A stretch of 64,000 nucleotides of DNA from a virus: the IMG/VR virus record IMGVR_UViG_3300022074_000002. The stretch is one strand, 5' to 3'. The translations under genes and the position numbers were made by a program. A model generated the notes under the pieces. It did not search any database. It was not told the DNA's origin and saw only the letters and a list, made by a program, of their open reading frames with translations. Of this stretch, positions 1-16,868 are shown one piece after another. The first letter of the stretch is position 1; every line of letters begins with the position of its first letter.

Positions 1-2
1 TC

Positions 3-3000
3 ATAGGTGGTACTGGTGATGGTGCAACTATAGGTGCAACTATAGATGGATTTGGTGGAAGTATAACTCAAGCAGGTAGTGCATATACACCTGGCGTTTA
101 CTTAAACATTCCTGTTGTTAGTAATGGTAGTGGTACTGGTGCTACTATTGATTTCACTGTTGATCAGATATCTGGTGCAATTACAAACGGTGGTATTAAC
201 TACTATCCTGGATCATATACAAACCTCAATGTAACAGGTGGTAGTGGTACACAGATGACTGCTGATGTGGTTGTATCTTCTTTTGCTGCTACTGTTACAT
301 CTGGTTCAAACTATCCTAGTGGTATATTCAAAAGTATTCCATTAACAGGTGGTAATGGAACTGGTATGTTGGTTAACCTCAACGTACAGAATGGTGGTGT
401 ACAACCTTTTGGTGGAGTTACCAGTAGTGAATTTGTATCTGTTACATCAAACTATACTGTAGGTGATGTATTAACAGGATCTATTCCTCTTGCAGGAACT
501 CAAACATTTATAGTTAAATCTTCTTTAGGTAACAAATATTTCATTGATGGATTTTTAGGTGGAGATTTTAACCTACTAAAAGGAAAAACATATGTCTTTG
601 ATTGTAGTGATAGTACAAACAATCAACACCCAATTTTCATATCTACTACACAAGATGATGCTAACACTATTCTTGATGCTGCAGATGGTGTTACATATGA
701 ATTAGATGGATCTACTGTAACTGGTGCACAATTTCTTGCTGGTTACTTTGCTGCAGCAACAAAAGTAATAACATTTGCAGTCCCATCTAACCCAAATAAT
801 TTAATTGTATATTATGGATGTAGTGTTCACCCACTTCAAGGTGGTTCATTAACTCTTACTGATCCAAATTCACAACAGAATGGATTCCAATTAGTTGTTG
901 ATACTATTGGTGGTACAGTATCTGAATTTATTGTTAACGCACCTGGCGATGGAAGTTATGCAGTAGGTGATGTAATTAGTATTGCTGCTGCAGATTTATA
1001 TGATGTAAACGGTGCAGATGCTGCAACATTAGGTTCTGGTTTACAGATTACTCTTGGTGGTAACTTTGGTGCGATTGCTGCATTAGATCAGATATCTGAT
1101 TTTGGTAGTGGTTATACAACTGGTGATCTATTAACTCTTGCTACTGCAGTCAATAATGTTACAACATATGCTAGAGGAGAACTTTCGTTTTTAGGTGTTA
1201 CATTTAACTCTAACGCTGGTGTAACAGCAATACAATATAGTGGTATTGCAGCGGGTGGTGCTAATAATTATAATAATATTTTAGTTCAAAACTTAACTTC
1301 TGCTGGTTCTGGATTGCGTGTTAATGTCGAGGTTATATTTGCAGGAGGAAATAATTCATATAATGCTGTAACCATTGTTGCAGCGGGTCAGGGATACTTA
1401 CCAGGCGATACACTGTATATACCAGGTAATCAACTTGGTGGTGCTGCTGGTGTTCAACCAGGTTCTGGTGGTAATGACCTTGCAATTAGTGTTGATACTA
1501 TTGAGGCAGGAAGTCCACAAGTTACTGTTGCTAGTACAACAGGTGTTGAAGTTGGAGATAGTGTTGAACTAATTCAGAATATTAATAACACAGCACAAAT
1601 TCCTGCTAATGTTACTGTCGCTAGTGTTGACAGTGCAACACAGTTTACGATGTCTGCAGGACCTACACAACCAGGTCAGGCAGATATAAAAGTTGTTAAC
1701 CAAAATCAAACTTACCTAACAGTTGCAGATAGTTCTAATATCGTTGCTGGAATGGTTGTAGTAAAAGTAAGTGGTAATGGTGAAATTATTGCTGGATCTA
1801 CAGTTACACAAATTGTAGATGCTACAACTGTAGAGTTATCAATTCTACCAACCATAGCTGGTGCACTGGTTGTTAATTTTGAACCTGAGTATGGTGGTGG
1901 TAGTGGATTTGAGTATACTGTTGGAACTCTAGGTTTTGCTAGTGAAGTAACCATAGTAGATGGTGGTAATGGTTATACAATAGGAGATGTCTTAAATGTA
2001 AGTTCATTTGATCTTGTACAACCAGAAGTATATGCTGTCACTAATTTACAGGTTGATAAGATTGTATTTACAAGCACCTCTCTTCCAGCTAATACATTTA
2101 GTGTAGGAGATTTGGTTAGAGATGCTGGTGGTGGAATACTTGCAAGTAATATTACAACTTCAACAACTGTAGGTGGTGCTGCAAATCAAAACTATACTGG
2201 AGTGGCACCTAGTCAAACATCTGGAAATGGTAGTAGTGCAACGTTTGATGTTACTAGAGATGCGGTGGGTGATGTATTATCTGCAACTGTTACCACAGGA
2301 TCTGAAGGTTACTTCTATGCGGTGGGTGATACAGTTACACTACCAGGTGCATCTGTTGGTGGATCAACTCCTGCTGACAACATTACGTTATCAATTTCAG
2401 CAATTACTTCTGCTGGTACTCCAGTTAAAATTCAGAAAGTTAAGACCAATGCTAATAATAATATTTCCTATATTATTTGTGATACATTTGGTTTCCAAGA
2501 TGGGTTTACTCTTGTAAGAGATGCTGCACCAACAGTAGCATATGATATTAACACTGCTGTTACTGAATATCGTTACTTTTTAGATCTTAATGATGGTAAC
2601 GGAGCAGTAATGACTCCTTCTTGGACAGTGTATGCTGGTAACAGTTATACGTTTGATTTAAGTGATAACACAAATGGTAGTCATGTATTTGCTTTATCTC
2701 AATTCCCTGATGGTAGATGGGCACCTAGTAGAGTTGAAAATTTAAGTACAACATTAAGTGCTAATACACCAACTATTACAGTCGCTTCGACAACTGGTAT
2801 TCAAGCAGGATTTACTGTTGAGAAAGTATCTGGAGATGGTATTATTCCTGATGGTACAACTGTACTATCAGTCGTCAACGGAACCACACTTACGTTAAGT
2901 GCAAACCCAACTACTGCTGGAGCAGTTGTATTTAATTTCTTTGGTGCAACATACACAAATGGTGTAACTGTAGACGGAACAAATCATACAATTAAGATTG

Positions 3001-5129
3001 CTGATGATACACCTAATCTTTACTATTTCTGTGCTACAGAAAATGTAGACCATGTTAACGAGGGTGGTGATGATAATGATGAAGCATTAATTACTGTCAA
3101 CACAAACAACCCTAAGACATTTGGTAGTGGTCTAGAGATAACAGTTACTGATGTTGTTGTAGAAGAAGTTGTAAAAGGTAAAGTAGATGATGGTGAATTT
3201 AGTGTACAAAAATTAGTAACACCAGACGCAGATATAGTTGCTGCTGCGATTGCAAATGCGACTGTTAGTGCAACTGCAACTCTTGCTGCCACTGTAACGA
3301 GTTCTATTACTGCGGTTACAAATGAAAACCTATCTCTTGCGGTTACAGATCCATTAACAAATAGTGTTGCTATAGATGCTGCTGGTGTTAATGTAGGGTC
3401 TACAATTCAAATTGCAGCGACGAGTGGTAATATTACAGGATCTGGAGAGTTAAAAGGTGCTTCTGTAAGTGTTGGTGATTATCTTAAATTATTAAGTTCT
3501 AATAATAGTCTATCATCTTTGGGTGGATATGACGTTATAGTTGCTCCTGACACAGGAAGAATTGCTGACGTCTTAACTAATACTGCTCTTGCTATTCCTG
3601 TTGGTAACACAGCAGAAAGACCTACTGCTGGTATTGTAAAAGATGGTTGTATCAGATATAACACAGATACAAATCAGTATGAAGGATATAGTACTAACTC
3701 TTTATCATGGTCATCTTTGGGAGGTGTAAGAGACTTAGATGGAAATACTACAATATTAGCAGAAGAAACTGTTGGTGCCAATGATAATACTCTATGGTTT
3801 ATTAACGATAATATTAATACAATTAGAGTCACACCAAATCATCTTGAGTTTGTAAATATGAAGAAGGTACGTTCTGTAAGCGTATCTGCTCCTGCATATA
3901 CAAATTGGAATGCAAATACTCCTGTAACGTTAGGTGAATATGTTAAGTACAAAAATAACTTATATGAAGTAACAGGTGCTGGTACTACCGCTACAAGTGG
4001 TAATGAACCAGTTCACACATCTGGTGCATTACAAAATGGTTCTGCAGAACTTACATATTCACAATTAGCGGTTGCTCCTCTAACATTTGAAGATATTGAG
4101 GAATTAAGAATAGGACCTCTAGGAGATCTTCCATTAAGTATTAATGGTGACTTAAGATTATTTGACAATGTAATTAATACAGACGTTAGTGATTTATTAC
4201 TTAGACCTAACTCTGGTAAGAGAGTTATTATTGATGCTGAAACATCTCTTGTAATTCCAAATGGATCTACTGCTCAGAGAGGAACAGCTGAGCAAGGATC
4301 TATCAGATACAATACTACAACTCTAACTTACGAAGGTTATGATGGAACTAACTGGGGTTCACTTGGTGGAGTAAAAGACGTTGATCAAAACACTTATATA
4401 ATTCCAGAATTATCTGCTGGATCAAATGAAAACATCTTGTATTTCTACAATGATGGAAGTAATACAATGCAGTTAACAACAACTGCACTTGACTTCTTCT
4501 CAGTAGATACAATTAGATCTCAGACAAGTCAACAGTTTGAAATTACTGCAAACTTGATGACATTTAATAATGCAGATACTACATTTGATAATACAAATGC
4601 ACTAAGTACATTCCTACATACTTCAAAACAGTATTTTGATCTTGGTGTTTCTACAGGTGTTTATGTAGATCCTATTTTAAGATTGGATGATCAAGGTGAT
4701 GTGTATTTAAATACTGGTTTCGGAACTGGTAGTTATAATGGTGTTAAAGTTTTTGATGGAGATCTAAAAGAGTTTGAACTTGCTGATGTTAAAATCTTAT
4801 CAGAGGTTATAACATTAACTAAAGGATCATCAAACAACGGTGGATCTAACATATATTCTGTTGCAGCTGCTAAAGGTGCGAAGGTAGTTGTTGTTGCAGA
4901 AAACTTACAAGATGGTGAAAAAGAGTTTATTGAATTTGGTGTCACAGATGATGGCACAGATATATTCCATACCGAGTATGGAAACTTGAGAACAGATTAT
5001 CAACTCATTATTCCTTCGTTTGAATTTACCGCTGGTAATGAAGCAAGGTTAAATATATTGTTAGGAGCAAATGTTCCTGCTACTAACTCAGTGAAGATTA
5101 CCTTCTCATCAACAATCACTAAGAAATAA
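3..5129 (+). CDS. Giant virion structural / tail-fibre-associated protein, 5'-partial
   Basis: The frame of the 1624-aa ORF (255..5129) stays open back to position 3 (ata ggt ggt act ggt gat...), so the gene starts upstream of the window. It is G/T/S/V-rich, with repeated 'GGxGxG...I..GGxGY..GD' modules, two cupredoxin-like modules, a CBM-like module and two 'IPxGxTAxR...G.IRYNT...EGY...W.SLGG' repeats typical of cyanomyovirus structural proteins. Confidence 0.8.
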   Translation: MGGTGDGATIGATIDGFGGSITQAGSAYTPGVYLNIPVVSNGSGTGATIDFTVDQISGAITNGGINYYPGSYTNLNVTGGSGTQMTADVVVSSFAATVTSGSNYPSGIFKSIPLTGGNGTGMLVNLNVQNGGVQPFGGVTSSEFVSVTSNYTVGDVLTGSIPLAGTQTFIVKSSLGNKYFIDGFLGGDFNLLKGKTYVFDCSDSTNNQHPIFISTTQDDANTILDAADGVTYELDGSTVTGAQFLAGYFAAATKVITFAVPSNPNNLIVYYGCSVHPLQGGSLTLTDPNSQQNGFQLVVDTIGGTVSEFIVNAPGDGSYAVGDVISIAAADLYDVNGADAATLGSGLQITLGGNFGAIAALDQISDFGSGYTTGDLLTLATAVNNVTTYARGELSFLGVTFNSNAGVTAIQYSGIAAGGANNYNNILVQNLTSAGSGLRVNVEVIFAGGNNSYNAVTIVAAGQGYLPGDTLYIPGNQLGGAAGVQPGSGGNDLAISVDTIEAGSPQVTVASTTGVEVGDSVELIQNINNTAQIPANVTVASVDSATQFTMSAGPTQPGQADIKVVNQNQTYLTVADSSNIVAGMVVVKVSGNGEIIAGSTVTQIVDATTVELSILPTIAGALVVNFEPEYGGGSGFEYTVGTLGFASEVTIVDGGNGYTIGDVLNVSSFDLVQPEVYAVTNLQVDKIVFTSTSLPANTFSVGDLVRDAGGGILASNITTSTTVGGAANQNYTGVAPSQTSGNGSSATFDVTRDAVGDVLSATVTTGSEGYFYAVGDTVTLPGASVGGSTPADNITLSISAITSAGTPVKIQKVKTNANNNISYIICDTFGFQDGFTLVRDAAPTVAYDINTAVTEYRYFLDLNDGNGAVMTPSWTVYAGNSYTFDLSDNTNGSHVFALSQFPDGRWAPSRVENLSTTLSANTPTITVASTTGIQAGFTVEKVSGDGIIPDGTTVLSVVNGTTLTLSANPTTAGAVVFNFFGATYTNGVTVDGTNHTIKIADDTPNLYYFCATENVDHVNEGGDDNDEALITVNTNNPKTFGSGLEITVTDVVVEEVVKGKVDDGEFSVQKLVTPDADIVAAAIANATVSATATLAATVTSSITAVTNENLSLAVTDPLTNSVAIDAAGVNVGSTIQIAATSGNITGSGELKGASVSVGDYLKLLSSNNSLSSLGGYDVIVAPDTGRIADVLTNTALAIPVGNTAERPTAGIVKDGCIRYNTDTNQYEGYSTNSLSWSSLGGVRDLDGNTTILAEETVGANDNTLWFINDNINTIRVTPNHLEFVNMKKVRSVSVSAPAYTNWNANTPVTLGEYVKYKNNLYEVTGAGTTATSGNEPVHTSGALQNGSAELTYSQLAVAPLTFEDIEELRIGPLGDLPLSINGDLRLFDNVINTDVSDLLLRPNSGKRVIIDAETSLVIPNGSTAQRGTAEQGSIRYNTTTLTYEGYDGTNWGSLGGVKDVDQNTYIIPELSAGSNENILYFYNDGSNTMQLTTTALDFFSVDTIRSQTSQQFEITANLMTFNNADTTFDNTNALSTFLHTSKQYFDLGVSTGVYVDPILRLDDQGDVYLNTGFGTGSYNGVKVFDGDLKEFELADVKILSEVITLTKGSSNNGGSNIYSVAAAKGAKVVVVAENLQDGEKEFIEFGVTDDGTDIFHTEYGNLRTDYQLIIPSFEFTAGNEARLNILLGANVPATNSVKITFSSTITKK

Positions 5130-5684: not shown

Positions 5685-8600
5685 ATGGCAATTCATATTA
5701 ATTCCGATAAAGAAAAGTTTAGGGGCGTCAACCCGAAACTTATCGGCGACAATGAACTTACAATTAGAAGTGGAACTGGTTCTGATGAGAAAGAAATTCT
5801 TAGAACACAGTTAGACGCTAGTACAGGATTGCCCCGTGTTGGTATAAACAGAACGGGTCAAAGAGTTAATGACGTTCAAATAGATTCTGGTGGTTCTGGA
5901 TACATATCACCACCAACTGTAACTATTGCTGCACCACCAGGTGGAGGTGTTCAAGCACAAGGTTCTGCTTTTATTTTTAACGGACAAGTTGTTTCTGTTG
6001 CTGTTAACGAACCAGGCAACGGATATACTACTGCTCCATTAGTTACTTTATCAGGCGGTGGTGGTGTTGGTGCTGCTGCAACAGCAGTTCTCGATACTGT
6101 AGACTTTGAACTTGATATTAACGGTGCGATTAGAACCTCAACTTCTATCATCTCTGACACTGCGAGAATCCTTAACCTTGATATTGATAACTTTGTTACT
6201 CCTAACGCAGCATTTAGAGCACCATCTTTAAAAACATTTGTTAATAACTCTGGTACTCTTTGGTCTCCAAATATTATTCTACAGACAAATGCTTACAGAT
6301 ATTTTGGAGCAAACGTATACCAAGCATTAAACTCAGGACAAACAGGATCTGATGCACCTGTTCATACAGATGGCGAAGCATTAAATGGCGAAGTTAATTT
6401 CAAACATATTGGTTTCCGTGTTGTAGATACAAATGCATATGGATATAGTGCAACAGGACCTGCTGGTGAGTTTCCAAAATCTATTACACCTTTACTAGGT
6501 GATAGATCCGACAAGATTGCAACTACAGAATACGTCCTCAACCTAGCAACGAATGACGTTGGTGGTCGTATCTACGTTTCACAGCAAATTGGTTCTGATC
6601 TTAACGATGGTCGTTCTGCTGTAAACCCAGTTAGAAGTATTAAAAAAGCAGCACAATTAGCATGGTCAACACCTGGCGTTAAAGAAACTATTATTGTATC
6701 TGGTGGAGACTATGTAGAAGATAACCCAATCTCACTACCTCCTGATGCATCAGTTGTTGGAGATAACTTACGTCTTGTTATCATTCGTCCTGCTAACCCA
6801 CAGAAACATATCTTTAAGTTTGGTGATAAGAACTATGTAATCGGTGTTACCTATAGAGATAAGATTGACTCTAATGGTGACGCAGTTGCTACTTGGGACT
6901 TTGCTATGGTCTTTGACGATAAGCAAAGAGTCATAATTGATAAAGAAGCAAATGGAGATTCTGGAACATCTTGGCCAATAGGTCATCAAATATTCGGACC
7001 TCAACAGTTCCGTGTTGGTTTCCAAGACAACACTGGTTTAGCAAATCTAACTACTGGTTTACAAGTTGTTGGTGTTAACACTGGTGCTAGAGCAGATATT
7101 ATTGCTGTCGCATTTGCTCAAACTACAGGTGCGAGTGCATATGTTGCTGGTAATATTGATGTTAAATTAGTCAGTGGTTCTTTTGTAGAAGGTGAACAAT
7201 TTAATTACGTAGTTTCAGTTCAGACTGGTGCTCAACAATCATTGAATACATCAGGAACGACAGCTGCTAATAAAATTACATACACACAAGATCCTACTTC
7301 TGCAATTCCTGCAGGAACATATGTGTATCTTTCTGATGCTGGTAATGCAGCATTTACTGCATCAACTGGATATTATGAAGTTGCTTTAATTGAACCTAAT
7401 GATATTAACACTCCCACAGCATGGGAAGTAACCTTTATACCTCTTCTAGGTTCTACTGGTTGGAACAATGTATTCACAGCACAAATAGAAACCTTTACAG
7501 GAAATGCTACCGTCAATACTTTAAATACAAATTCTCTTCAATCAATTAGAGCTGAGGGTGAAGTTGTATCTGTTGACGAAGATTACGTTACATCATTACC
7601 TATTGCTAGAATTGACTTCTCATTACAAGGTGATGCTAGTATTGCTCAAGATGGTTTCCAAAGTGCACAGTTTGGTAACGCAGAAGATCTAGGTGGTATC
7701 GTATTCTACACAAACGCATTAGTTGGTAGAAATAATACACACGAGTTTAAAGATGGTCAAGAAATATTAATAGAAGGACTACCAACTTCCAACCCTGATC
7801 TATCAGTATTAAATGGTAAGCAAAGAATTTACAAAGTAATTGAAGATGCTGATGGTCGTTGCAGAAGATTTGTAATTCCTAAAAAAATGCCAGCAATCAC
7901 AGATGCTAATCTGGATCCTGGTCAATTTGCTATTGTAAAAACTTTTTCAAAGTCTATTACACTTACACTTCTAAACTCTCCAAACACCTTCCCAATATCT
8001 ACACCAGTAGAAAGAAGATTCCAAGACGCTTGTACATTCCTTCGTAACAACAGAGAATTTATTGCAGAAGAAGTTCTTGGTGAGGTTAATAATCAGTTTG
8101 CAAGATATCATTATTCTGTTTATGATATTGGTGCTGGTGGTGGAAATGATTTTAAAATATTTGTTGGACTTACTGGACAAGAACACACATACGTTTCTGG
8201 TGGTACAGTAACATTTGGTGGAAGCACTGTTAATGTAACTAATTTTGTTTACGATAATATTGTTACAGGTAATGCTACTGTTACAACTGCATCTCCTATA
8301 GCAGGATTAGCAGAAGATGATGTAATAAAACTAGAGGGAATGACTCTATCCTGTAGTGCTGGTAATAAAGTATATCCTGCATACAGTGCTTATAGTGCAT
8401 CAGGAGATGATGGTGATACACAATGTAAGCAAGATGTTGTTCACTTTATCAATGCTCTTATAAGAGACTTAGAATTTGGTACAAACCATAACGTTCTTGA
8501 AGGTTCTCAGAAATATATTGTTGGTGGTAAGATAACATATATTGATGATGAAATTATAGAAAATGTTCGTGCTATTGAATATGCTAGACAGTTAGCAATA

Positions 8601-11600
8601 TATTGCATAAACAACTGGAGAACTGGAACTGGAACTCCTACAGAACCAATCTATACACCAAAATATTCTAGTCTACCAAGATACTTTGATGACACTGTAG
8701 TTACATCTACAGCTTTGTTAAATGCAGATGGTAGTTCTAATGGTAGTGGAAATGCTTGTAATGATGTAACATCTGCTATTGATACTCTATCATTCTTATG
8801 GAACGATGTTATTGCTAACAATGCTAGTGGAACATATCTAGATGCTGCATACCTAATTTCTAGAAACAAAGTTCTTATTGCAGATCAAGCATTACGTGAT
8901 ACAGAAGCATACTTCCCATTCTTAAATCTTGATGATACATCAGAAAGAAAATGTCGTAGAGATGTTAGAAAAATATTAGATGGTTTAATCAGAGACTTAG
9001 TATTAGGTGGTAACGATGGTATCTTAACTGCTGCTGAATCATACTTTACAGGAACACAATTAACTGGTGTTCAAGAAGCACAACGTGCACCAACTTTATA
9101 TGCTGTTGGAAGAGCAAAATTATATGCTATCGCAGCAATGCGTAACTGGACTGATGGTAATGTTCTTGAAGTCACACCAAGCAACGCAACATATAATTCA
9201 ACATCAGGTGAATTAACTGTTTCATTCCCTGCTCCTTTAATAGATGTTTCTATTGGAGATAGAATTGCATTCAAAGAAGAAGCACTTAATTTCTCTTGTA
9301 CATATAACGGTACAACAGCAAACCATCCTGGTCCTGCAAAAACAGATCCATCTTATGGAAAGAGTTTTAACATATCAAACCTTGTAAGTAACGGAGTTAC
9401 AACAACAATTACATGTAATGTTGGAGATGCAGGTCCTGCTGCTGGTGTTGCTCACACATATACAGGTTCTGTAACTAACGGAACAATCATAATTTATAAT
9501 CCAACACAACTATCATCACCTATTCCTAAGTTTGAAGATTGGAATATACTTCTTGATGCTACTTCAAGTGCTGCGTCTAACATATTATCTCCAACAAATG
9601 CTACTTATGAACCAGGAACTGGTTTACTAGAATTAACAGTTCCATCTGGACATAACGTATCAACATCTAATGAAGTTAGAATTGCTCCTGACTCATTAAC
9701 AATGACCTGTGCGATGGATAACAACATCACAGAGCACAAATATCCACAAGAAGGACAACCAGCATTTGGTAATAATAGACCTGTAACTGCAGTAACTGCA
9801 ACTACAATTACCGTTGATGTTGGTACAGCAGGAGCAAACTTAACATTTACTCCAACAGATGCAACATATGACCCTTCAACTGGTTTGTTGGTTCTAACTA
9901 TTGGTTCTCATAGTTTAACTGTAGGCGAAGGTGTTGTTATTGCTAGTGACTCACTCACATTCACATGTGCGATGGATGGCAACCAAAGTCAGAAAACTTA
10001 TCCTCGTGCATCTACAGATTATGCTGCTGAAAGATCTCTGCCAATTGCTGCAGTAACTGCTGAAACTATTACTGTTGACGTAGGAACTGCTGGTGCTAAC
10101 AGAACATTTACTGCTACTGATGCAACATATACACCTTCAACAGGAGTCATGGAACTTACTGTTGGTCAACATGGTTTAGGTGTTGGAAAGGGTATTGTAA
10201 TTCTTGATAACTCTCTTACATTTACATGTGCTCAAGACGGTAATGCTACAAACCATTCATATCCAAGATCCACTGACCCTGCATCAGGAACTTCTAGAAC
10301 TATCACTGCTGTAGGTGAAACACAGCATACAATTACAAATGCACCATATGATCCTGCTACAGGAATAATAACTGTAACTATTTCAAATCATAATTTCTCT
10401 AATGGTGATTACATTAAACTTGATGATGATTCATTAACTTATACTTGCACATTAGACAGTAATGCATCTAATCACACTTATCCTCGTGCTACAGATCGTG
10501 TTAGTGGACGTTGGTTGGCAATTTCTAATGTAACACAAAATACATTTGAGATTAATGTAGGTGCTAACTCAGAAGGTGGAGCACATACATTCGTCAGTGC
10601 ATCATCAAATGGTTTGAAGAGACAGACTGGAACATTGACTGTTAATGTTGGAACATCATCTAACACAACAAACCACACATTTGTAAGTGCTACTACTAAT
10701 GGTATTACACATTCTCCAACCACAACTCACACATTTGTATCTGCAGCAGCTGACGCTGTAAGTCATCAACCATCTGCTGTTCATACATTCAAGAGAATGG
10801 ATGCAAACTCTGTGTCGGTATATGCTGCAGGAGCTGCACCATTATGTGCTGGAGTTGCTACATCTATCAACACAATCATGAGTACATTGACTGATGTGTT
10901 GGATGGTACGACTTCTGCTGGTTCTACAGCAAGAACATATGGAACTCTATTTGATGCCTCACTACTCTTTACATATCCTGATAGTTTCTTATATGATGAA
11001 TTTAATAAGAGAGTATCAATTCGTGGTAACTATGATGATTATCCAATCATTGAAGCATCTCCATATACACAGAACGCATCTGTTATCTCTTTCTTAGGAG
11101 GTGGTGGTGCACTGGTTGATGGATCTAAAGTCAAACAACCCAACTGCCCATTTCCTGGTCTTGAACTAGATGGAACTGCATCCTTCCCTAATCAGGGTAA
11201 GTCGATGGTTGCATCTGCATTCACGATTGTATCTTTTGGTGGTACTGGTTATAAGGTTATTAATGATGGTTACACACAGTTGGTTTCTGTGTTCGTTATC
11301 TTCTGTCAAGATGGTGTGCTTGCTGAGTCAGGTGGTTATTGTTCTATTACTAACTCTGCTACTAACTTCGGTACATTTGCTTTAAGGGGTGTCGGATATA
11401 GAGAAGAGTGCTACACATTTGACCAAGGTATAGTCAGTAACGTATCTGCTACACCTACAGGTAGAACAATACTTACAATTAGTGGATTAGGAAGAGAACC
11501 ACTAGAGCATTATGTTGGTAAAATTGATGGGTATAGAAATACAAACGTAAACATAGAATACTTTGTTGATGTTGTTGCTGCTGTTACTGTAGGTCCTCCA

Positions 11601-14600
11601 TTCTCTGCACAGTTAACATTTGATGATGGTACTGGTGGTGGAATGGACTTGACCGATTTGTCTACTGGTAATCCAGTATCTACTGGTGCTCTTCTTGGTA
11701 AGAGTATTAAATTACATAGACCATCTATTGTTAACTCCTCATCACACACTTGGGAATTTGCTGGATCAGGTACTAACTACCTAGCACTACCTGAGAACGG
11801 TGGTACTAAGATTGAAGCATACGAACAGGTTTCTGAACTATATGGTCGTGTATATGTCTCTGGTACTGACGAACTTGGAGACTTCAAGGTTGGTACATTT
11901 GCTAGAATTGAAAACAGAACTGGTGCGATTACCTTTACTGGTACGGTTACAATCTCTGAAGTTGAATTCTTGAAACTAAAAGGTGGTGACGTTGTTGTTA
12001 CTGGTTTTGATGCATCTAACACATTGGGTGGTGCTAACGCTACTGACTCTAAACTACCTACTCAGAAAGCAGTTAGAGACTACATCACTAACTCCTTAGG
12101 ACCTTACATCAACAAACCATACTCTACTAACGCTGTTCCTAGAGCACTGGTTGAATTGACTGACTCTGGTAAGATATCTGTTGACCAGATTCCAGCACTT
12201 AGACCTTTCAGTGTATTTACTGTTCCTGATCAAGCATCAAGAACTTCTCTAGAAGGAGCACTTGCTGGTGACATCGCAATCCAACAGGATACATCACAGT
12301 CATTTATTCTAAACAATGACCTTGAGAGTTTATTCTTAGGATTTACAGTAGACACTAATTTAGCATTTACAATTGGAGATATCTTCGAGGGTAGTATATC
12401 TGGTGGTCGTATACAGGCAACAGAATATAGACAAGGTGTTGTATTCAGAGTTAATATCTCTAACGGTGGTTCTGGATACACTGTTGCACCAACTGTTAGT
12501 TTCTCAGGTGGTAACCCTGCAGCTGGTGCTGTGTCAGCAGCAGCAACTTGTACAATTGCAAACGGTCAAGTTGTTACTGTAACTATCCAGACGTTTAATG
12601 GATTTAAAGGTGGTAAAGGATATACCACACAACCTACTGTTACATTCTCTGCTCCTCCAGGTGCTGGTCAACAAGCACAGGGTAATCCTTTAATTGAAAG
12701 TAGATTATATGGTAGCATCGTTAACAATATTAAGATTGAAGATACTGATACTGTTAATGACAGCACAACACCAAGTGCAAATACAGTTAATATTAATAGA
12801 ACTATTAACACATCTTCATTCAATGTTAACAACTGGGTATCTCTATCATCTAACCAGATTGCTGCATCAGATATTACATCAGGTGTTATTGAAACAGATA
12901 GATTAGCATCAGGTGGTGCTGCTAACTCATTCACATTCTTAAGAGGTGACCAGAACTTTGCATTAGCAGTTCAGTCTATCAAAGGTGCTGAGACAAGATA
13001 CTTTGCTAAACTGGTATCACAGGTTAATACTGGATCATCATCTATGATCTTTAGCACGAACTCTGACGTTCTTATTGGTCACGATGTTCTTTCTGGTGTT
13101 GCTGGAATACAAAACAATACAAGTATTACTGGTGTTATTACTGCTGCTGGTTTAACAACTATATCATTAAATAATCCAGTTACTCAAAACATTCCATTAG
13201 GAACAATCATTGAGTTTGAGCGTGGTGAATCACCAATGACATTTGAGTCTACCTTCACACAGGGTGGATTTGTTGATGATGTCATCATCGCAAACGGCGG
13301 ATCAGGATTTACAAACGGACAATACTTTGATCAATCTCTAACAGGTGGTACAGGAACAGGATTAAAAGCAAACATTGTTGTTGCTGGTAACGCTGTTACA
13401 GAAATGACTGTTACTGATGGTGGTACTGGATACAATGCTGACTTCTCAATTACAGTTGCACCTTCAGCACTTGGTGGTGGATCTAGTTTAGTATTAAATG
13501 CTAAAGTAAGTACAGTTAATAGACAGTATGCAAACGTTTCTCTTGACATTAACAGAGTTACTGACCTAACAATTTCTGCTGACCTTTACGGAACAATTGG
13601 TGTTTCCAGATATAAGAAAGCACAATTTAATATTGGTCAGGCAGGAAACGGATCTGTTGAACTTAAGACTGGTGCTGACAGTGGACTTGATGCTGACTTA
13701 TTAGATGGACAGCAAGGTAATTACTATACCAATGCAAATCACTTGTTCGCTGGACAAGTTCCACAAGACAGATTGGGTGGTATATATGGTATTGACATTA
13801 GTGGATCTTCTGCTAACACAATTAGATTACAGTCTGGTACTAACAACCCAACCTCTAATCCAAATCCAAACAGTTTTGTTGAAGGTGTTATTTCTAATAC
13901 AGTATTCAACAGTTCTAATGGATTGGGAACTGCATATCCTTCAGTTAATACAGGTATTGGAACTGGAACATCTACCAAGCACTTAGTTCTAACCATAAGA
14001 AATGGTGCTGCTGGTTTTGACGCATCGTTTGGTGGTGTAAGACAACTTGCATTTGCTAATGATGACAATATGTACCTTCGTGGTTCTGGTAACGGAGTCA
14101 GCACATGGAACTCATGGGCGAAGGTATGGACATCATTAAGTGATGGTGTTGATTCTGGAATGGATGCTGACAGACTAGACAACAGACAAGGTAATTGGTA
14201 TCAGGATGCATTAAACATTAACTACGGAACATTATCTGATAATAGACTTCCTAGATTTATTAGTGAAACTAAGTTTAGAGATAAGATCACAATCAAAGCG
14301 TTTGCTGGTGATCCTAAGTTTAGAATATATGTCTCAGGTCAAATACTTAATCAGGCACCATTTATACCTGGCGATCCTAACAACCCATCTGTAAACCTTT
14401 ACAATGCTAACGCACAGGGTGTTGGTAGTTTTGTTATCGACAACGTTGTTACCAATGATGATGTTAATGATAACTTTAATGACTACACAATCCTAATTGG
14501 TAGACTTACATCTGGTAACTTTGCTGGTGCTCTAACAGTTGGTACTGCATCTAACAGAGTAGAGTTTGATGACTTTACTATTGAAGATGGTAACACACTA

Positions 14601-16100
14601 GAAGTTTGTAACTTACATAGTGATGGCGGTGTTGGACAGTTACAATTAGGTAGAAAAGATGGTAACGCAACTACACCTAGAATATTATTCAATTCATCTC
14701 AGCTCGCTTCTAGTTACAACGCTAAGATAGAAGCATCAGGTGGTAATGCATCTGCAGGATCTGGTTCTCTTAACGTTGATGTTGTAAATGCTGACGGATT
14801 TACAATTAAGAACCAAGTTGTTTGGAACCAAGGTAACATACAATTCTCAAGTTCTAACACACCAAACTATGCTGTACAACGTGATGGATCTGGTAACTTC
14901 TCTGCTGGAACAATCACAGCAAACTTAGTTGGTTCTGCATCACTTAACGTATTGAAGACTGGTGATACAATGACTGGTTCATTGAACATCACTGGTGGTA
15001 GTTCAACACTTACAGTTGCTGGTACTACAAATCTCAATAGCATAGTTAACATTGCAAATGATCTTAGTGTTGATAGTGGTGTATTATTTGTTGATGTATC
15101 CGCTAATGAGGTCGGAATAAACACTACATCTCCAGCTGCTCCTCTAGACGTTAGAGGTGATGGCGGTGTCATGATCCGCAGTACTACCAACAATGTTGGT
15201 GTAGGAATTAGATTCAGTGATCAAACTAGCGGATTTACTCAGCAAGGTAGATTCTTCTATCAGCATGGTGATGCTACTACTGGTTTTGGTTCTTACAACG
15301 AACAGTTCCAAGTTGAAGGTACAGAAACATTATTAGGTTTCAGAGTAGTTGGTGATATCCATGCATCCAGAAGAATGGGTGTTGGTATAAATCGTTTACC
15401 AAATTTCACATTTGAAGTTGGTGGAACTGGAATGTTCTCAGGTGCTCTTACTATTGACAGTGCTAATGATAACTCTGGTGCACCATTATACTTCTTAGGT
15501 TCTAACTCACAAAGGAACTTTAGAATTGGTAACCAGATTGGTCACAGTAATGCGTTTGAAATAACACCATCTACAAACAATGGTGGTCAGAACTGGGATG
15601 GCACTCCTGCAATTTATGTAAGAGGTGACAGAAGAGTTGGTATCAATACATCAGCAATATCTGGTGTTGACTCTGAATCAAACACAACTAGAAGTTACTA
15701 CTTGAATGTTCAAGGTGACATGAACATCAATGGTCAGTTGTTCCAGAATAACTCTGAATTCGTAACATCTAGATGGACAGAAGCATCTAACAATCTAGAT
15801 ATTTACAGACTATCCAGAGTTGGAATCAAGAAACAAGATCCTACATATGATCTACATGTTCTTGGTGGAGTTAACATTGAAGGTTCCACATTTAGTGGTG
15901 GACAGAACACATCTGTTCTTTATGCTAACGGTGTTAAGCAGTGGATTGACTCTTATGGAATATTCAAGGCAAACTCAAATACAGTTTCTGAAAACGTAAC
16001 TGTACCAGCAAATGTCAACTGTGTAAGTGCAGGACCTATCACTATTGCTAACGGTTATACAGTGACTATAAATAATAGTGGTAACTGGGCTATTGTATAA
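5685..16100 (+). CDS. Giant tail fibre / receptor-binding structural protein (3471 aa)
   Basis: Contains GSGY repeats, a CBM-like module, a pectin-lyase-like beta-helix start (GGRIYVS..GSDLNDGRS..PVRSIKKA), Cys-containing helical repeats, beta-sandwich repeats, fibre-shaft motifs (DADLLDGQQG, DADRLDNRQG, VGINT..P.A.LDV.G) and a C-terminal 'SAGPITI..G.TVT...GNWAIV' end typical of cyanophage fibres. Confidence 0.85.
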   Translation: MAIHINSDKEKFRGVNPKLIGDNELTIRSGTGSDEKEILRTQLDASTGLPRVGINRTGQRVNDVQIDSGGSGYISPPTVTIAAPPGGGVQAQGSAFIFNGQVVSVAVNEPGNGYTTAPLVTLSGGGGVGAAATAVLDTVDFELDINGAIRTSTSIISDTARILNLDIDNFVTPNAAFRAPSLKTFVNNSGTLWSPNIILQTNAYRYFGANVYQALNSGQTGSDAPVHTDGEALNGEVNFKHIGFRVVDTNAYGYSATGPAGEFPKSITPLLGDRSDKIATTEYVLNLATNDVGGRIYVSQQIGSDLNDGRSAVNPVRSIKKAAQLAWSTPGVKETIIVSGGDYVEDNPISLPPDASVVGDNLRLVIIRPANPQKHIFKFGDKNYVIGVTYRDKIDSNGDAVATWDFAMVFDDKQRVIIDKEANGDSGTSWPIGHQIFGPQQFRVGFQDNTGLANLTTGLQVVGVNTGARADIIAVAFAQTTGASAYVAGNIDVKLVSGSFVEGEQFNYVVSVQTGAQQSLNTSGTTAANKITYTQDPTSAIPAGTYVYLSDAGNAAFTASTGYYEVALIEPNDINTPTAWEVTFIPLLGSTGWNNVFTAQIETFTGNATVNTLNTNSLQSIRAEGEVVSVDEDYVTSLPIARIDFSLQGDASIAQDGFQSAQFGNAEDLGGIVFYTNALVGRNNTHEFKDGQEILIEGLPTSNPDLSVLNGKQRIYKVIEDADGRCRRFVIPKKMPAITDANLDPGQFAIVKTFSKSITLTLLNSPNTFPISTPVERRFQDACTFLRNNREFIAEEVLGEVNNQFARYHYSVYDIGAGGGNDFKIFVGLTGQEHTYVSGGTVTFGGSTVNVTNFVYDNIVTGNATVTTASPIAGLAEDDVIKLEGMTLSCSAGNKVYPAYSAYSASGDDGDTQCKQDVVHFINALIRDLEFGTNHNVLEGSQKYIVGGKITYIDDEIIENVRAIEYARQLAIYCINNWRTGTGTPTEPIYTPKYSSLPRYFDDTVVTSTALLNADGSSNGSGNACNDVTSAIDTLSFLWNDVIANNASGTYLDAAYLISRNKVLIADQALRDTEAYFPFLNLDDTSERKCRRDVRKILDGLIRDLVLGGNDGILTAAESYFTGTQLTGVQEAQRAPTLYAVGRAKLYAIAAMRNWTDGNVLEVTPSNATYNSTSGELTVSFPAPLIDVSIGDRIAFKEEALNFSCTYNGTTANHPGPAKTDPSYGKSFNISNLVSNGVTTTITCNVGDAGPAAGVAHTYTGSVTNGTIIIYNPTQLSSPIPKFEDWNILLDATSSAASNILSPTNATYEPGTGLLELTVPSGHNVSTSNEVRIAPDSLTMTCAMDNNITEHKYPQEGQPAFGNNRPVTAVTATTITVDVGTAGANLTFTPTDATYDPSTGLLVLTIGSHSLTVGEGVVIASDSLTFTCAMDGNQSQKTYPRASTDYAAERSLPIAAVTAETITVDVGTAGANRTFTATDATYTPSTGVMELTVGQHGLGVGKGIVILDNSLTFTCAQDGNATNHSYPRSTDPASGTSRTITAVGETQHTITNAPYDPATGIITVTISNHNFSNGDYIKLDDDSLTYTCTLDSNASNHTYPRATDRVSGRWLAISNVTQNTFEINVGANSEGGAHTFVSASSNGLKRQTGTLTVNVGTSSNTTNHTFVSATTNGITHSPTTTHTFVSAAADAVSHQPSAVHTFKRMDANSVSVYAAGAAPLCAGVATSINTIMSTLTDVLDGTTSAGSTARTYGTLFDASLLFTYPDSFLYDEFNKRVSIRGNYDDYPIIEASPYTQNASVISFLGGGGALVDGSKVKQPNCPFPGLELDGTASFPNQGKSMVASAFTIVSFGGTGYKVINDGYTQLVSVFVIFCQDGVLAESGGYCSITNSATNFGTFALRGVGYREECYTFDQGIVSNVSATPTGRTILTISGLGREPLEHYVGKIDGYRNTNVNIEYFVDVVAAVTVGPPFSAQLTFDDGTGGGMDLTDLSTGNPVSTGALLGKSIKLHRPSIVNSSSHTWEFAGSGTNYLALPENGGTKIEAYEQVSELYGRVYVSGTDELGDFKVGTFARIENRTGAITFTGTVTISEVEFLKLKGGDVVVTGFDASNTLGGANATDSKLPTQKAVRDYITNSLGPYINKPYSTNAVPRALVELTDSGKISVDQIPALRPFSVFTVPDQASRTSLEGALAGDIAIQQDTSQSFILNNDLESLFLGFTVDTNLAFTIGDIFEGSISGGRIQATEYRQGVVFRVNISNGGSGYTVAPTVSFSGGNPAAGAVSAAATCTIANGQVVTVTIQTFNGFKGGKGYTTQPTVTFSAPPGAGQQAQGNPLIESRLYGSIVNNIKIEDTDTVNDSTTPSANTVNINRTINTSSFNVNNWVSLSSNQIAASDITSGVIETDRLASGGAANSFTFLRGDQNFALAVQSIKGAETRYFAKLVSQVNTGSSSMIFSTNSDVLIGHDVLSGVAGIQNNTSITGVITAAGLTTISLNNPVTQNIPLGTIIEFERGESPMTFESTFTQGGFVDDVIIANGGSGFTNGQYFDQSLTGGTGTGLKANIVVAGNAVTEMTVTDGGTGYNADFSITVAPSALGGGSSLVLNAKVSTVNRQYANVSLDINRVTDLTISADLYGTIGVSRYKKAQFNIGQAGNGSVELKTGADSGLDADLLDGQQGNYYTNANHLFAGQVPQDRLGGIYGIDISGSSANTIRLQSGTNNPTSNPNPNSFVEGVISNTVFNSSNGLGTAYPSVNTGIGTGTSTKHLVLTIRNGAAGFDASFGGVRQLAFANDDNMYLRGSGNGVSTWNSWAKVWTSLSDGVDSGMDADRLDNRQGNWYQDALNINYGTLSDNRLPRFISETKFRDKITIKAFAGDPKFRIYVSGQILNQAPFIPGDPNNPSVNLYNANAQGVGSFVIDNVVTNDDVNDNFNDYTILIGRLTSGNFAGALTVGTASNRVEFDDFTIEDGNTLEVCNLHSDGGVGQLQLGRKDGNATTPRILFNSSQLASSYNAKIEASGGNASAGSGSLNVDVVNADGFTIKNQVVWNQGNIQFSSSNTPNYAVQRDGSGNFSAGTITANLVGSASLNVLKTGDTMTGSLNITGGSSTLTVAGTTNLNSIVNIANDLSVDSGVLFVDVSANEVGINTTSPAAPLDVRGDGGVMIRSTTNNVGVGIRFSDQTSGFTQQGRFFYQHGDATTGFGSYNEQFQVEGTETLLGFRVVGDIHASRRMGVGINRLPNFTFEVGGTGMFSGALTIDSANDNSGAPLYFLGSNSQRNFRIGNQIGHSNAFEITPSTNNGGQNWDGTPAIYVRGDRRVGINTSAISGVDSESNTTRSYYLNVQGDMNINGQLFQNNSEFVTSRWTEASNNLDIYRLSRVGIKKQDPTYDLHVLGGVNIEGSTFSGGQNTSVLYANGVKQWIDSYGIFKANSNTVSENVTVPANVNCVSAGPITIANGYTVTINNSGNWAIV
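9591..10812 (+). repeat. Four ~87-aa coding repeats (ATYxPxTG...SLTFTC..D...YPR...TITVxVG) followed by four HTFVSA-type closing strands
   Basis: Repeat starts at 9591, 9852, 10113 and 10332 (spacing 261, 261, 219 nt). HTF(V/K) motifs at 10584, 10674, 10728 and 10782. Confidence 0.85.
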
Positions 16101-16112
16101 AGGAATCAAAAG

Positions 16113-16868
16113 ATGGCAGGTATTTTAAAAGTAGACCAGATCCAAAACACCGCTGGTGTTCAAATAATGGATCTGCAAAACGACAACTTGAGAATATGGA
16201 ATGGAAGTAGTTATGAACCTATGGCGACACCTGGTGCTTTGATAAGCATTCAAACATTTACTTCTCAAGATGGTACATGGAACTCTAAGTCAACCTCTGG
16301 TGGATCAGGAACTTGGACTAAACCAACTGGTTGTGCTCATGTTCTTGTCTATTGTACAGGTGGTGGCGGTGGAGCAAGAGTTAATGACAACTCTTACCGT
16401 GGTGCTGGTGGAGGTGGAGGTGGAACTGCTATCAAATATATTGATGTATCTACTGTAAACTCTGTAAACTACAGTTATGGTGGTGGTGGAGGTTATGCTC
16501 GTAACGGTGGTAGAGGTGGAACTGGAGGAACTTCATCCTTTGGTTCTTATGTAACTGCGACTGGTGGACAAGGTGGTCAGACTGATAACCCATATCAGGG
16601 AGGACCTGGTGGAAACGCTTCTGGTGGCGACATTAATTTACCTGGCGGTGGTGGTGAAATGGCACACGGAGCAGATAGAGAAGGTGGTTCTGGATCCAGT
16701 TTCTGGCACAAAGCTGGTGGTTCACATCACTATGCCAATAACCAAGAAGAGATTACTCATGGTCAGTGGGGATCTGGAGGCGGTTATGGTTACTATTCAC
16801 AAAACAGTTTTGCATATGGCAACTCCTATGGTGGTGCAGGATGCGTTATCGTTTATAATTACACATAA
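16113..16868 (+). CDS. Glycine-rich fibre-tip adhesin-like protein
   Basis: N-terminal 'MAGILKVDQIQ' fibre-associated motif, then about ten poly-Gly tracts separated by aromatic/polar loops; directly downstream of the giant fibre. Confidence 0.65.
   Translation: MAGILKVDQIQNTAGVQIMDLQNDNLRIWNGSSYEPMATPGALISIQTFTSQDGTWNSKSTSGGSGTWTKPTGCAHVLVYCTGGGGGARVNDNSYRGAGGGGGGTAIKYIDVSTVNSVNYSYGGGGGYARNGGRGGTGGTSSFGSYVTATGGQGGQTDNPYQGGPGGNASGGDINLPGGGGEMAHGADREGGSGSSFWHKAGGSHHYANNQEEITHGQWGSGGGYGYYSQNSFAYGNSYGGAGCVIVYNYT

What the first reader, a model, noticed from the sequence alone, without database searches (positions are those of the whole stretch)
9591..10812. Matryoshka (nested) domain repeats in the giant tail fibre
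Seen in sequence: a complete copy of the module ends '...TITxNVG...HT(F/Y)xS', as at ~9180-9480. Repeats 1 and 2 (9591, 9852) stop after 'TITVDVGTAGAN' and lack the HTFVSA strand. Repeat 3 (10113) lacks both the 'TITVxVG' and HTFVSA strands. Repeat 4 (10332) is complete. The missing pieces then appear in reverse order: TLTVNVG+HTFVSA (10674, closing repeat 3), HTFVSA (10728, closing repeat 2) and HTFKR (10782, closing repeat 1), the last three spaced 54 nt apart. This is the pattern expected if each domain was inserted into a loop of the previous one, so that the chain runs out and returns as a stalk, rather than tandem duplication. Inference: a mechanism for building length-tunable side arms on a fibre.
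Basis: partly seen in the sequence, partly recalled or inferred. Interest (0 to 1): 0.7.

Follow-up and report, generated by a model that had tools for sequence, protein, structure and literature searches.

The report
Nested beta-barrels in cyanophage tail fibre
A 3,471-residue tail-fibre-type protein of a marine T4-like cyanophage holds four copies of one small beta-barrel domain spliced into each other's loops like Russian dolls, a rare build that most likely makes a stiff arm sticking out from the fibre.

Summary
In ORF 5685-16100, a roughly 104-residue module occurs once complete (R0). It then occurs as three copies cut short (R1 and R2 lack the last hairpin; R3 lacks the last strand and the hairpin), followed by one complete copy (R4). 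The missing pieces come next, in reverse order.

Three independent lines support real nesting:
- **Profile coordinates:** the truncated copies and the late pieces are complementary.
- **AlphaFold2 model (pLDDT 86):** single-barrel PDB chains align to residue ranges running from each opener to exactly its predicted closer.
- **Relatives:** 21 distinct architectures, with up to 12 modules and 7 levels, parse as last-in-first-out brackets. None parses first-in-first-out, and no shuffle parses.

The whole four-module nest also sits at a different site in otherwise collinear relatives, so it behaves as a plug-in cassette.

The module has no Pfam family and no clear solved homologue. It is a small beta-barrel, nearest to the phi92 endosialidase barrel and the UBA1 FCCH domain.

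The closest published parallel is the recursively nested Si3 insertion of cyanobacterial RNA polymerase. I found no paper describing this in phage fibres. The scan has already noted the same architecture, often deeper, in other genomes. The side-arm function is inferred, not tested.

The parts
5685..16100 (+). Giant tail-fibre-type virion protein, 3471 aa (P0001)
   Evidence: It is the only long ORF here. It matches phrog_5342 'tail fiber protein' at E=0 and has no Pfam hit. The orthologue Syn1_101 is annotated as a tail fiber protein and lies between virion structural genes and gp13/gp14.
9171..9503 (+). R0: complete, contiguous module (aa 1163-1273)
   Evidence: Covers profile positions 1-103. 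Single-barrel PDB chains align to model residues 1..118.
9504..9584 (+). Linker with the invariant motif IPKFEDWNIL (aa 1274-1300). Its end is insertion site B of the nest.
   Evidence: Invariant columns in alignment A1. pLDDT is below 50. In L023 this motif is followed directly by the PLCA segment, with no nest between them.
9585..9845 (+). R1 opener (aa 1301-1387): core plus V strand, no H hairpin. This is the outermost barrel.
   Evidence: Covers profile positions 2-83. Barrel chains align to model 141..562, which is aa 1296-1717.
9846..10106 (+). R2 opener (aa 1388-1474): core plus V strand, inserted in the V/H loop of R1
   Evidence: Covers profile positions 1-86. Barrel chains align to model 229..543, which is aa 1384-1698.
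10107..10325 (+). R3 opener (aa 1475-1547): core only, inserted in the V/H loop of R2
   Evidence: Covers profile positions 1-75. One barrel chain aligns to model 317..521, which is aa 1472-1676.
10326..10625 (+). R4 (aa 1548-1647): complete module, innermost, inserted between the core and the V strand of R3. It is the tip of the arm.
   Evidence: Covers profile positions 1-103. Folded alone it gives pLDDT 95.4. Barrel chains align to model 388..494.
10626..10727 (+). Closer of R3 (aa 1648-1681): V strand TLTVNVG plus H hairpin HTFVSA
   Evidence: Covers profile positions 71-101. A continuous strand runs from the last strand of R4 into this V strand. The test of this piece and the R3 opener as separate chains gave weak support.
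10728..10781 (+). Closer of R2 (aa 1682-1699): H hairpin HTFVSA
   Evidence: Covers profile positions 84-102. Ranges of barrels aligned on R2 end at model 540-543.
10782..10829 (+). Closer of R1 (aa 1700-1715): H hairpin HTFKR..SVSVY
   Evidence: Found by motif and PSSM. Ranges of barrels aligned on R1 end at model 558-562.

Best explanation
Residues 1301-1715 of the fibre protein are four copies of one roughly 104-residue beta-barrel module, nested by domain insertion.

How the chain runs:
- R2 sits in the loop between the last-but-one strand (V) and the last hairpin (H) of R1.
- R3 sits in the same loop of R2.
- R4 sits one loop earlier in R3, between the core and the V strand.
- The chain builds three unfinished barrels on the way out and completes R4 at the far end.
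- On the way back it finishes R3 (V plus H), then R2 (H), then R1 (H).

Consequences (inferred):
- Each neighbouring pair of barrels is joined by two chain crossings instead of one.
- The whole unit enters and leaves the host protein at one point.
- So it most likely forms a stiff rod of four barrels projecting sideways from the fibre.

The nest behaves as a self-contained cassette. Relatives carry it at another site, at both sites, or with more levels and branches.

Shown here: the sequence layout, its conservation, the bracket grammar in relatives, and the nested topology of the predicted model.

Inferred: that the real protein folds this way within a single chain, that it is a rigid side arm, and that it contacts the host.
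For: (1) Complementary profile coordinates of truncated openers and late closers.

(2) AlphaFold2 model of aa 1156-1722 built from 27 orthologues: mean pLDDT 86.3, pTM 0.64, closers at pLDDT 84-96.

(3) VIA-align of that model against 48,161 PDB chains. The same FNR-type single barrels that match the contiguous module also align to split ranges in the large model:
- Model 141..562: for example 6l2u_B, Z 6.4, 87 residues, rmsd 3.6.
- Model 229..543: for example 8qq5_A, Z 6.0, 83 residues, rmsd 3.7.
- Model 317..521: 1bx0_A, Z 5.6, 77 residues, rmsd 3.3.
These are exactly R1, R2 and R3, each with its predicted closer. R0 (1..118) and R4 (388..494) are contiguous. One search gives the matches to the contiguous module, with 70-87 residues aligned at rmsd 2.8-3.7.

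(4) Long continuous strands link R3 to R4, outbound (AVGETQH) and returning (LKRQTGTLTVN).

(5) Grammar test on 78 related loci. Of 45 distinct token strings with two or more modules:
- 21 parse last-in-first-out, with up to 12 modules and depth 7.
- 0 parse first-in-first-out.
- 0 of 3000 shuffles of each string parse, apart from one two-module string at 2 of 3000.
- Closers never outnumber openers.

(6) Parses by eye show modules split at all four loop sites and balance at 8, 4 and 11 modules: L031, L044, L054.

(7) L033 differs from L031, and L039 from L038, by exactly one balanced module.

(8) Cassette mobility. Window aa 1302-1743 equals L023 aa 834-1276 at 57% identity, inside otherwise collinear proteins. 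L027 has nests at both sites.

(9) Trans test of the R3 opener with its V+H closer as separate chains: weak support.
- ipSAE 0.49, best control 0.01.
- The mark was reached by 58 of 80 solved complexes and 2 of 110 mismatched pairs.
- At 0.60 or under it was reached by only 7 of those 80, and by both mismatches that passed.
- The runs agree in at least 92% of contacts, and the partner's pLDDT is at least 65.
- My own alignments were used, so these counts hold only roughly.
Against: - No coordinates or contact map could be read. The nested topology of the model is inferred from first and last aligned residues, aligned length and rmsd.
- R3 rests on a single VIA row.
- The model is a prediction from 27 fairly similar sequences, with no experimental structure.
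- 24 of 45 token strings did not parse automatically. The causes I could see were missed short or degenerate tokens, contig ends and H-first modules, but only three complex arrays were checked by eye.
- Within the window alone, the order evidence is modest: only the position of one V strand among four closers separates reverse order from same order.
- Phage fibres are usually trimers. A monomer model cannot tell intrachain completion from completion by a neighbouring chain.
- The tip module R4 is no more variable than the others, which gives no support for a receptor-binding tip.
Confidence: 0.85

Rival explanations
1. The openers are ordinary tandem repeats with frayed C-terminal ends. The 18-residue HTFVSA repeats form a separate small beta domain of their own, for example a sheet or a trimeric beta-structure.
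For: Read along the sequence, the region looks like four tandem repeats 261 nt apart followed by three repeats 54 nt apart. Foldseek on the whole model returns only beads-on-a-string Fn3/Ig proteins.
Against: - There would be no reason for the number and kind of late pieces to equal what the openers lack, yet they do so from 1 to 12 modules.
- It cannot explain cores split in the middle by whole modules.
- In the model the late hairpins fall inside barrel ranges that start at the openers.
- The Foldseek hits have TM about 0.1 and rmsd above 23, so they are not real matches.
Confidence: 0.04
2. The same bracket layout exists, but the barrels are completed between chains. In a trimeric fibre, the closers of one chain finish the openers of a neighbouring chain (three-dimensional domain swapping), locking the trimer together rather than making separate arms.
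For: Phage tail fibres are generally trimers (general knowledge). The grammar and count balance would be the same. The opener and closer are predicted to associate as separate chains, with weak support (score 0.49, best control 0.01; the mark was reached by 58 of 80 solved complexes and 2 of 110 mismatches, but at 0.60 or under by only 7 of the 80 and by both mismatches that passed).
Against: - The monomer model closes every barrel within one chain at high confidence.
- The short two-strand connections between R3 and R4 favour intrachain return.
- The published nested case, Si3, is intrachain (PMC10895346).
- No oligomer was modelled here.
Confidence: 0.08
3. The nesting is real, but it is a neutral product of repeat shuffling in a hypervariable gene. 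It would be a tolerated decoration with no specific role as an arm.
For: - Copy number, depth and position vary widely among relatives.
- No module, the tip included, stands out in variability.
- The family is small: 775 cluster representatives among 1.84 billion proteins.
Against: The four-level layout and many invariant residues are kept across 26 loci down to 55% identity, which argues for selection on the fold and layout. Balance is always maintained, so unbalanced variants seem to be removed.
Confidence: 0.2

Closest known systems
Si3 insertion of the cyanobacterial RNA polymerase beta' subunit (RpoC2)
   Same: Copies of one small beta domain are inserted into one another, so several domains are built from distant parts of the chain, and the whole forms an elongated arm anchored at one point. 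The crystal structure has eight SBHMs, four of them discontinuous (PMC10895346). A 2026 survey describes a six-level recursive insertion (PMC13114784).
   Different: - The protein and setting differ: an enzyme's trigger loop versus a virion fibre.
- The module differs as far as tested. There is no sequence match and no RNA polymerase chain among the 50 best structural neighbours.
- The window's nest is four deep and unbranched.
- Here the nest also moves as a cassette between sites of the host protein.
Split domains of RTX adhesins (AhLap, MpIBP)
   Same: A beta domain is interrupted so that another domain buds out sideways from a long fibre-like protein. The budding domain's N and C termini lie next to each other (PMC12077191). 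This is the best functional parallel for a side arm.
   Different: In the adhesins an Ig-like host carries an unrelated ligand-binding domain, mostly one level deep. Here one family is inserted into itself recursively.
Beta-barrel domain of phage endosialidases (phi92, PDB 4hiz) and the FCCH domain of UBA1
   Same: These are the nearest solved folds to the single module. 4hiz_A: Z 7.3, 76 residues, rmsd 2.1. 4p22_B: Z 7.5, 74 residues, rmsd 2.5.
   Different: Sequence identity is 10-16%, Z is under 8, and Foldseek E is at least 0.045. That shows a shared common barrel arrangement, not demonstrated homology. Those domains are not self-nested.
Giant virion proteins of T4-like cyanophages (phrog_5342, phrog_701, phrog_18802, phrog_2885)
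   Same: The window protein belongs to phrog_5342 at E=0, and its modules match these families. BFVD models with the same module (TM 0.9 or more) are all Synechococcus-phage tail, structural, baseplate-wedge or long-tail-fibre proteins.
   Different: Their annotations name no domain and mention no nesting. I found no paper that describes it.

Membership tests
Recursive (nested) domain insertion, as in cyanobacterial Si3 | A domain is built from two or more sequence pieces separated by a whole other domain | tested here: met
   Truncated openers and late closers have complementary profile coordinates. Single-barrel chains align to model ranges 141..562, 229..543 and 317..521.
Recursive (nested) domain insertion, as in cyanobacterial Si3 | Pieces close in last-in-first-out order over several levels | tested here: met
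   The window string parses last-in-first-out and not first-in-first-out, and 0 of 5000 shuffles parse. 21 distinct architectures parse last-in-first-out and none first-in-first-out.
Recursive (nested) domain insertion, as in cyanobacterial Si3 | Host and insert belong to the same domain family | tested here: met
   All five copies match one profile at E from 1e-24 to 2e-43.
Sandwich-barrel hybrid motif (SBHM) fold of RNA polymerase | Structural or sequence similarity of the module to SBHM domains | tested here: inconclusive
   No RNA polymerase chain is among the 50 best VIA matches of the single module. The profile search of the PDB found nothing significant. A direct superposition on Si3 was not possible.
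phrog_5342 cyanophage tail fibre protein | Full-length profile match | tested here: met
   E=0, 4908 bits, four stretches. Gene order matches Syn1_101.
Tandem Ig/Fn3-like bead-on-a-string repeats | Each repeat is a complete, contiguous domain | tested here: not met
   R1, R2 and R3 lack profile positions 84-104, 87-104 and 76-104. The Fn3/Ig Foldseek hits have TM about 0.1.
Trimeric phage fibre | Three chains around a common axis | not tested
   No oligomer was modelled.

The most novel reading that the evidence does not exclude
Cyanomyophage virion proteins carry a self-nesting beta-barrel 'plug-in'. It is a cassette whose two ends meet, so it can be pasted into a loop of its host protein or of another copy of itself. 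It grows by recursion into rods and branched trees, and it moves between sites. This would be a general and so far undescribed way for phages to evolve projecting structures of adjustable reach.
Probability: 0.5. Interest if true: 0.75.

Novelty: new variant of a known kind. Interest (0 to 1): 0.6.

Why it matters
Domain insertion is common, but deep insertion of one domain family into itself is described in the papers I found only for the Si3 arm of cyanobacterial RNA polymerase. Finding the same logic in phage fibre proteins has several uses:
- **A second, independent system.** It uses a different barrel and has many natural variants, from 1 to more than 20 modules, branched or not. That allows study of how such proteins fold, why double-linked domains are chosen over beads on a string, and how the genes grow while staying balanced.
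- **Annotation.** It explains why these giant cyanophage proteins look like broken repeats followed by stray short repeats.
- **Protein design.** The cassette, whose ends meet, is a natural template for stiff projecting arms.
- **Phage ecology.** The arms are candidates for host contact in the most abundant marine phototroph-phage systems.

Tried and rejected
- **Pfam on the whole protein:** no family.
- **Foldseek of the whole model against the PDB:** only generic Fn3/Ig multi-domain chains at TM about 0.1, uninformative.
- **Foldseek of the single module against the PDB:** nothing at E 0.001 or better.
- **Profile search of PDB sequences:** best hit was iota-carbonic anhydrase at E 0.007, in weak stretches, taken as chance.
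- **Model coordinates:** no coordinate file is laid in the script box, so strand pairings could not be read directly.
- **Regex tokens:** too noisy, with false HxF hits in the flanks. Replaced by a PSSM with a clearly bimodal score distribution.
- **Strict parse on profile coordinates:** works for simple arrays but fails on complex ones, because fragments of 17 residues or fewer go undetected.
- **Relaxed monotonic version of that parse:** cannot separate last-in-first-out from first-in-first-out, so dropped.
- **Strict five-token parse:** succeeded only for the window-type strings. The final test allows skips of the two weak tokens only.
- **Degenerate closers after R1 and R2:** I considered that LTFTPT and RTFTAT were degenerate closers and rejected it.
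- **Recent duplication:** rejected. DNA copies are only 62-80% identical.
- **Hypervariable tip (R4):** not seen.
- **The window's own assembly:** not held, so other module-bearing genes of this phage outside the window could not be sought. Inside the window only this ORF has modules.
- **Literature searches:** none found nested or matryoshka domains in phage fibres, or a cyanomyophage fibre structure that describes this.
Full report
**Setting.** The window comes from a T4-like marine cyanomyophage. The region's nearest relatives in the phage collection are Synechococcus and Prochlorococcus phages at 64-67% DNA identity. The finding lies in one ORF, 5685-16100 on the plus strand, 3471 residues. 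This protein has no Pfam domain. It matches phrog_5342 'tail fiber protein' over its length at E=0, and its repeat region matches several families of giant cyanophage virion proteins. In phage Syn1 the orthologue, Syn1_101, is annotated as a tail fiber protein. It sits after other large virion structural genes and before gp13, gp14 and gp15. The window's neighbours fit this: another giant structural protein upstream, and a tail-fibre-assembly-like gene downstream.

**The observation.** I defined the repeat objectively. A core profile was built from the five window copies and iterated over 78 related loci from viral metagenomes. From these I collected 154 distinct contiguous complete modules and made a 104-position profile. 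Its parts are:
- a core ending in an 'I.AV' strand;
- a V strand of the TITVNVG type;
- an H hairpin of the HTFVSA..G type.

Mapped back on the window, the profile gives:
- R0, complete, positions 1-103;
- R1, positions 2-83;
- R2, positions 1-86;
- R3, positions 1-75;
- R4, complete, positions 1-103;
- then a piece covering positions 71-101 and a piece covering positions 84-102.

The last HTFKR hairpin was found by motif and PSSM only. So the pieces that follow R4 are exactly what R3, R2 and R1 lack, in that order.

I checked one possible objection. The LTFTPT and RTFTAT strings after R1 and R2 might have been degenerate HTFVSA strands. They are not. They align to the first positions of the next module, and R0 and R1 carry the same first strand with nothing in front of them.

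The DNA copies are 62-80% identical, so these are old repeats. The layout is conserved in 26 loci at 55-91% protein identity.

**Predicted structure.** AlphaFold2 on aa 1156-1722, with the 27-sequence alignment, gave mean pLDDT 86.3 and pTM 0.64. The closers scored 84-96. Only the linker after R0 was disordered. No coordinates are handed out, so I used structural alignment ranges as a readout of topology. VIA-align against 48,161 PDB chains returned many single small barrels of the FNR FAD-binding, riboflavin-synthase and EF-Tu-domain-2 type. Each aligned 70-90 residues at rmsd 2.5-3.7. Their first and last aligned model residues fall into five classes:
- 1..118, which is R0;
- 388..494, which is R4;
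- 317..521, the R3 opener to the end of the V+H closer;
- 229..543, the R2 opener to the end of the next hairpin;
- 141..562, the R1 opener to the end of the last hairpin.

The same PDB chains match the contiguous single module with similar lengths and rmsd. A compact barrel of about 100 residues can span 420 residues of chain only if it is made from the two ends of that span. The secondary structure adds that one long strand leaves R3 into R4 and another returns from R4 into the V strand of R3. R3 rests on one alignment row only. All of this reads a prediction, not an experiment.

**Test with separate chains.** I folded the R3 opener (76 aa) and its V+H closer (38 aa) as separate chains, each with its own alignment. 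The verdict was weak support:
- score 0.49, best control 0.01;
- the mark was reached by 58 of 80 solved complexes and 2 of 110 mismatched pairs;
- at 0.60 or under it was reached by only 7 of those 80, and by both mismatches that passed;
- the runs agree in at least 92% of contacts, and the partner's pLDDT is at least 65;
- my own alignments were used, so the counts hold only roughly.

This adds little on its own.

**Relatives.** I split the module into five tokens: a and b (the two halves of the core up to YPR), c (the last core strand), v and h. Tokens a and b came from profile hits, h from a PSSM with a clearly bimodal score distribution, and c and v from weak profile hits.

With the three strong tokens alone, 66 of 117 arrays parse as nested. 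These include strings with 8, 9, 10, 11 and 12 modules and depth up to 7. Closers never outnumber openers.

With all five tokens, skipping allowed only for the weak c and v, there are 45 distinct strings with at least two modules:
- 21 parse last-in-first-out;
- none parses first-in-first-out;
- none of 3000 shuffles of each string parses, except 2 of 3000 for one two-module string.

The window's own string parses with no skip, fails first-in-first-out, and 0 of 5000 shuffles parse.

The 24 failures stop at a missing strong token, a contig end, or a module whose H hairpin comes first. I checked three complex arrays by eye:
- L031 balances at eight modules. One core is split after YPR by a whole module, and that host module carries insertions in three of its loops.
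- L044 balances at four modules once flank false positives are removed.
- L054 balances at eleven modules once a degenerate closer (HTLSGVVSNQ) is accepted.

Pairs of close relatives differ by exactly one balanced module: L031 versus L033, and L038 versus L039. Deeper relatives are branched trees, not only stalks.

**A moving cassette.** The two proteins are collinear: aa 1-816 matches aa 10-826 at 70% identity, and the C-terminal 1,300 residues match at 59%. The exception is the four-module nest. Window aa 1302-1743 matches L023 aa 834-1276 at 57%.
- In L023 the nest sits right after 'YSVYNIG', and the invariant IPKFEDWNILL motif runs straight into the PLCA segment.
- In the window the first site is empty and the nest sits between IPKFEDWNILL and PLCA.
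- L027 has a nest at both sites.

A unit of about 410 residues that can occupy either of two loops of the same host protein must have its two ends together. That is what nesting predicts.

**What the module is.** Folded alone, with 56 diverse complete copies, it gives pLDDT 95.4 and pTM 0.85. Its best solved neighbours are:
- the FCCH domain of UBA1: Z 7.5, 74 residues, rmsd 2.5;
- the beta-barrel of phi92 endosialidase: Z 7.3, 76 residues, rmsd 2.1;
- barrels in other phage tail proteins;
- FNR-type FAD-binding barrels: Z 5-6.

Foldseek finds nothing at E 0.001 or better, and a profile search of PDB sequences finds nothing credible. At Z under 8 this shows a common barrel arrangement, not homology. 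No RNA polymerase chain is among the top 50, so a link to the SBHM fold is open, not excluded.

In BFVD the module recurs at TM 0.9 or more only in Synechococcus-phage tail, structural, baseplate-wedge and long-tail-fibre proteins. Among 1.84 billion cluster representatives, 775 carry it, with up to 30 matched stretches in one protein. Within the window no other ORF has it.

**How it most likely works.** Shown: the layout, its conservation, the grammar, the cassette behaviour and the predicted topology. Inferred: because the chain enters and leaves at one point, the nest cannot be part of the fibre's through-going shaft. It must project from the shaft. Two chain crossings between each pair of barrels should make it stiffer than single-linked beads. 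RTX adhesins use split domains in just this way, to hold ligand-binding domains away from the fibre axis (PMC12077191). Depth varies among relatives, so 'tunable' is fair as an evolutionary statement.

What the arm binds, if anything, is unknown. The tip module R4 is no more variable than the rest: mean pairwise identity is 0.60-0.68 for every segment. A trimeric fibre in which closers complete a neighbour's openers cannot be excluded with a monomer model.

**Comparison with what is known.** Nested insertion of one family into itself is documented for Si3 of cyanobacterial RNA polymerase. It has eight SBHMs, four of them discontinuous, forming a long arm anchored in the trigger loop (PMC10895346). 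A 2026 survey of 48,551 insertion events singles it out as a six-level case (PMC13114784). My searches found no paper describing such nesting in phage fibres.

Earlier notes of this scan report the same architecture, often deeper (up to ten levels), in other cyanophage genomes. They pointed me to Si3, the survey and the adhesin paper, which I then read myself.

**Verdict.** The window's case is a clean, conserved, four-level, unbranched example of a family-wide feature. It is a new variant of a known kind rather than a new kind.

Noticed in passing
window 8184-8414 (aa 834-910); also L031 aa 2006-2222, L044 aa 1285-1388, L067 aa 1235-1661: Some modules have the H hairpin in front of the core. 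In the window this is a degenerate copy: HTYVSGG followed by a weak core match at E 0.13-0.26. The L067 array reads 'hhabab habhab' with equal counts of a, b and h. These may be circular permutants of the barrel, which is possible because its two ends meet. They are one cause of the automatic parse failures.
   Followed up: partly
window 9504-9584 (aa 1274-1300): IPKFEDWNIL is invariant across 27 sequences, yet it lies in the only stretch with pLDDT below 50. A conserved motif in a disordered linker suggests a contact with another chain or protein. It also marks one of the two insertion sites of the nest.
   Followed up: no
window 5850-6098 (aa 56-138) and 12450-12680 (aa 2256-2332): Two copies of a different glycine-rich repeat of the GGSGY..PTVT type lie 2,200 residues apart. 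They cross-match between the window protein and L023. The first copy hits phrog_460 'head closure Hc2'.
   Followed up: no
window 3-5129 and 16113-16868: The upstream ORF runs off the window start, with at least 1,708 aa. It is another giant virion structural protein (phrog_6005) and has no barrel modules. The downstream 251-aa ORF resembles tail-fibre assembly proteins and fibre C-termini (phrog_863).
   Followed up: partly
L054 aa 1968-1979: One closer has decayed to HTLSGVVSNQ and runs straight into the next module's first strand. So the last hairpin can be shortened a good deal without the array losing balance.
   Followed up: partly
PDB chains (for example 2qtz_A 274..527, 1ddg_A 237..441): The FAD-binding barrels of diflavin reductases that resemble the module are themselves interrupted by about 150-200 residues. 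This kind of barrel also hosts an insertion in unrelated enzymes.
   Followed up: no
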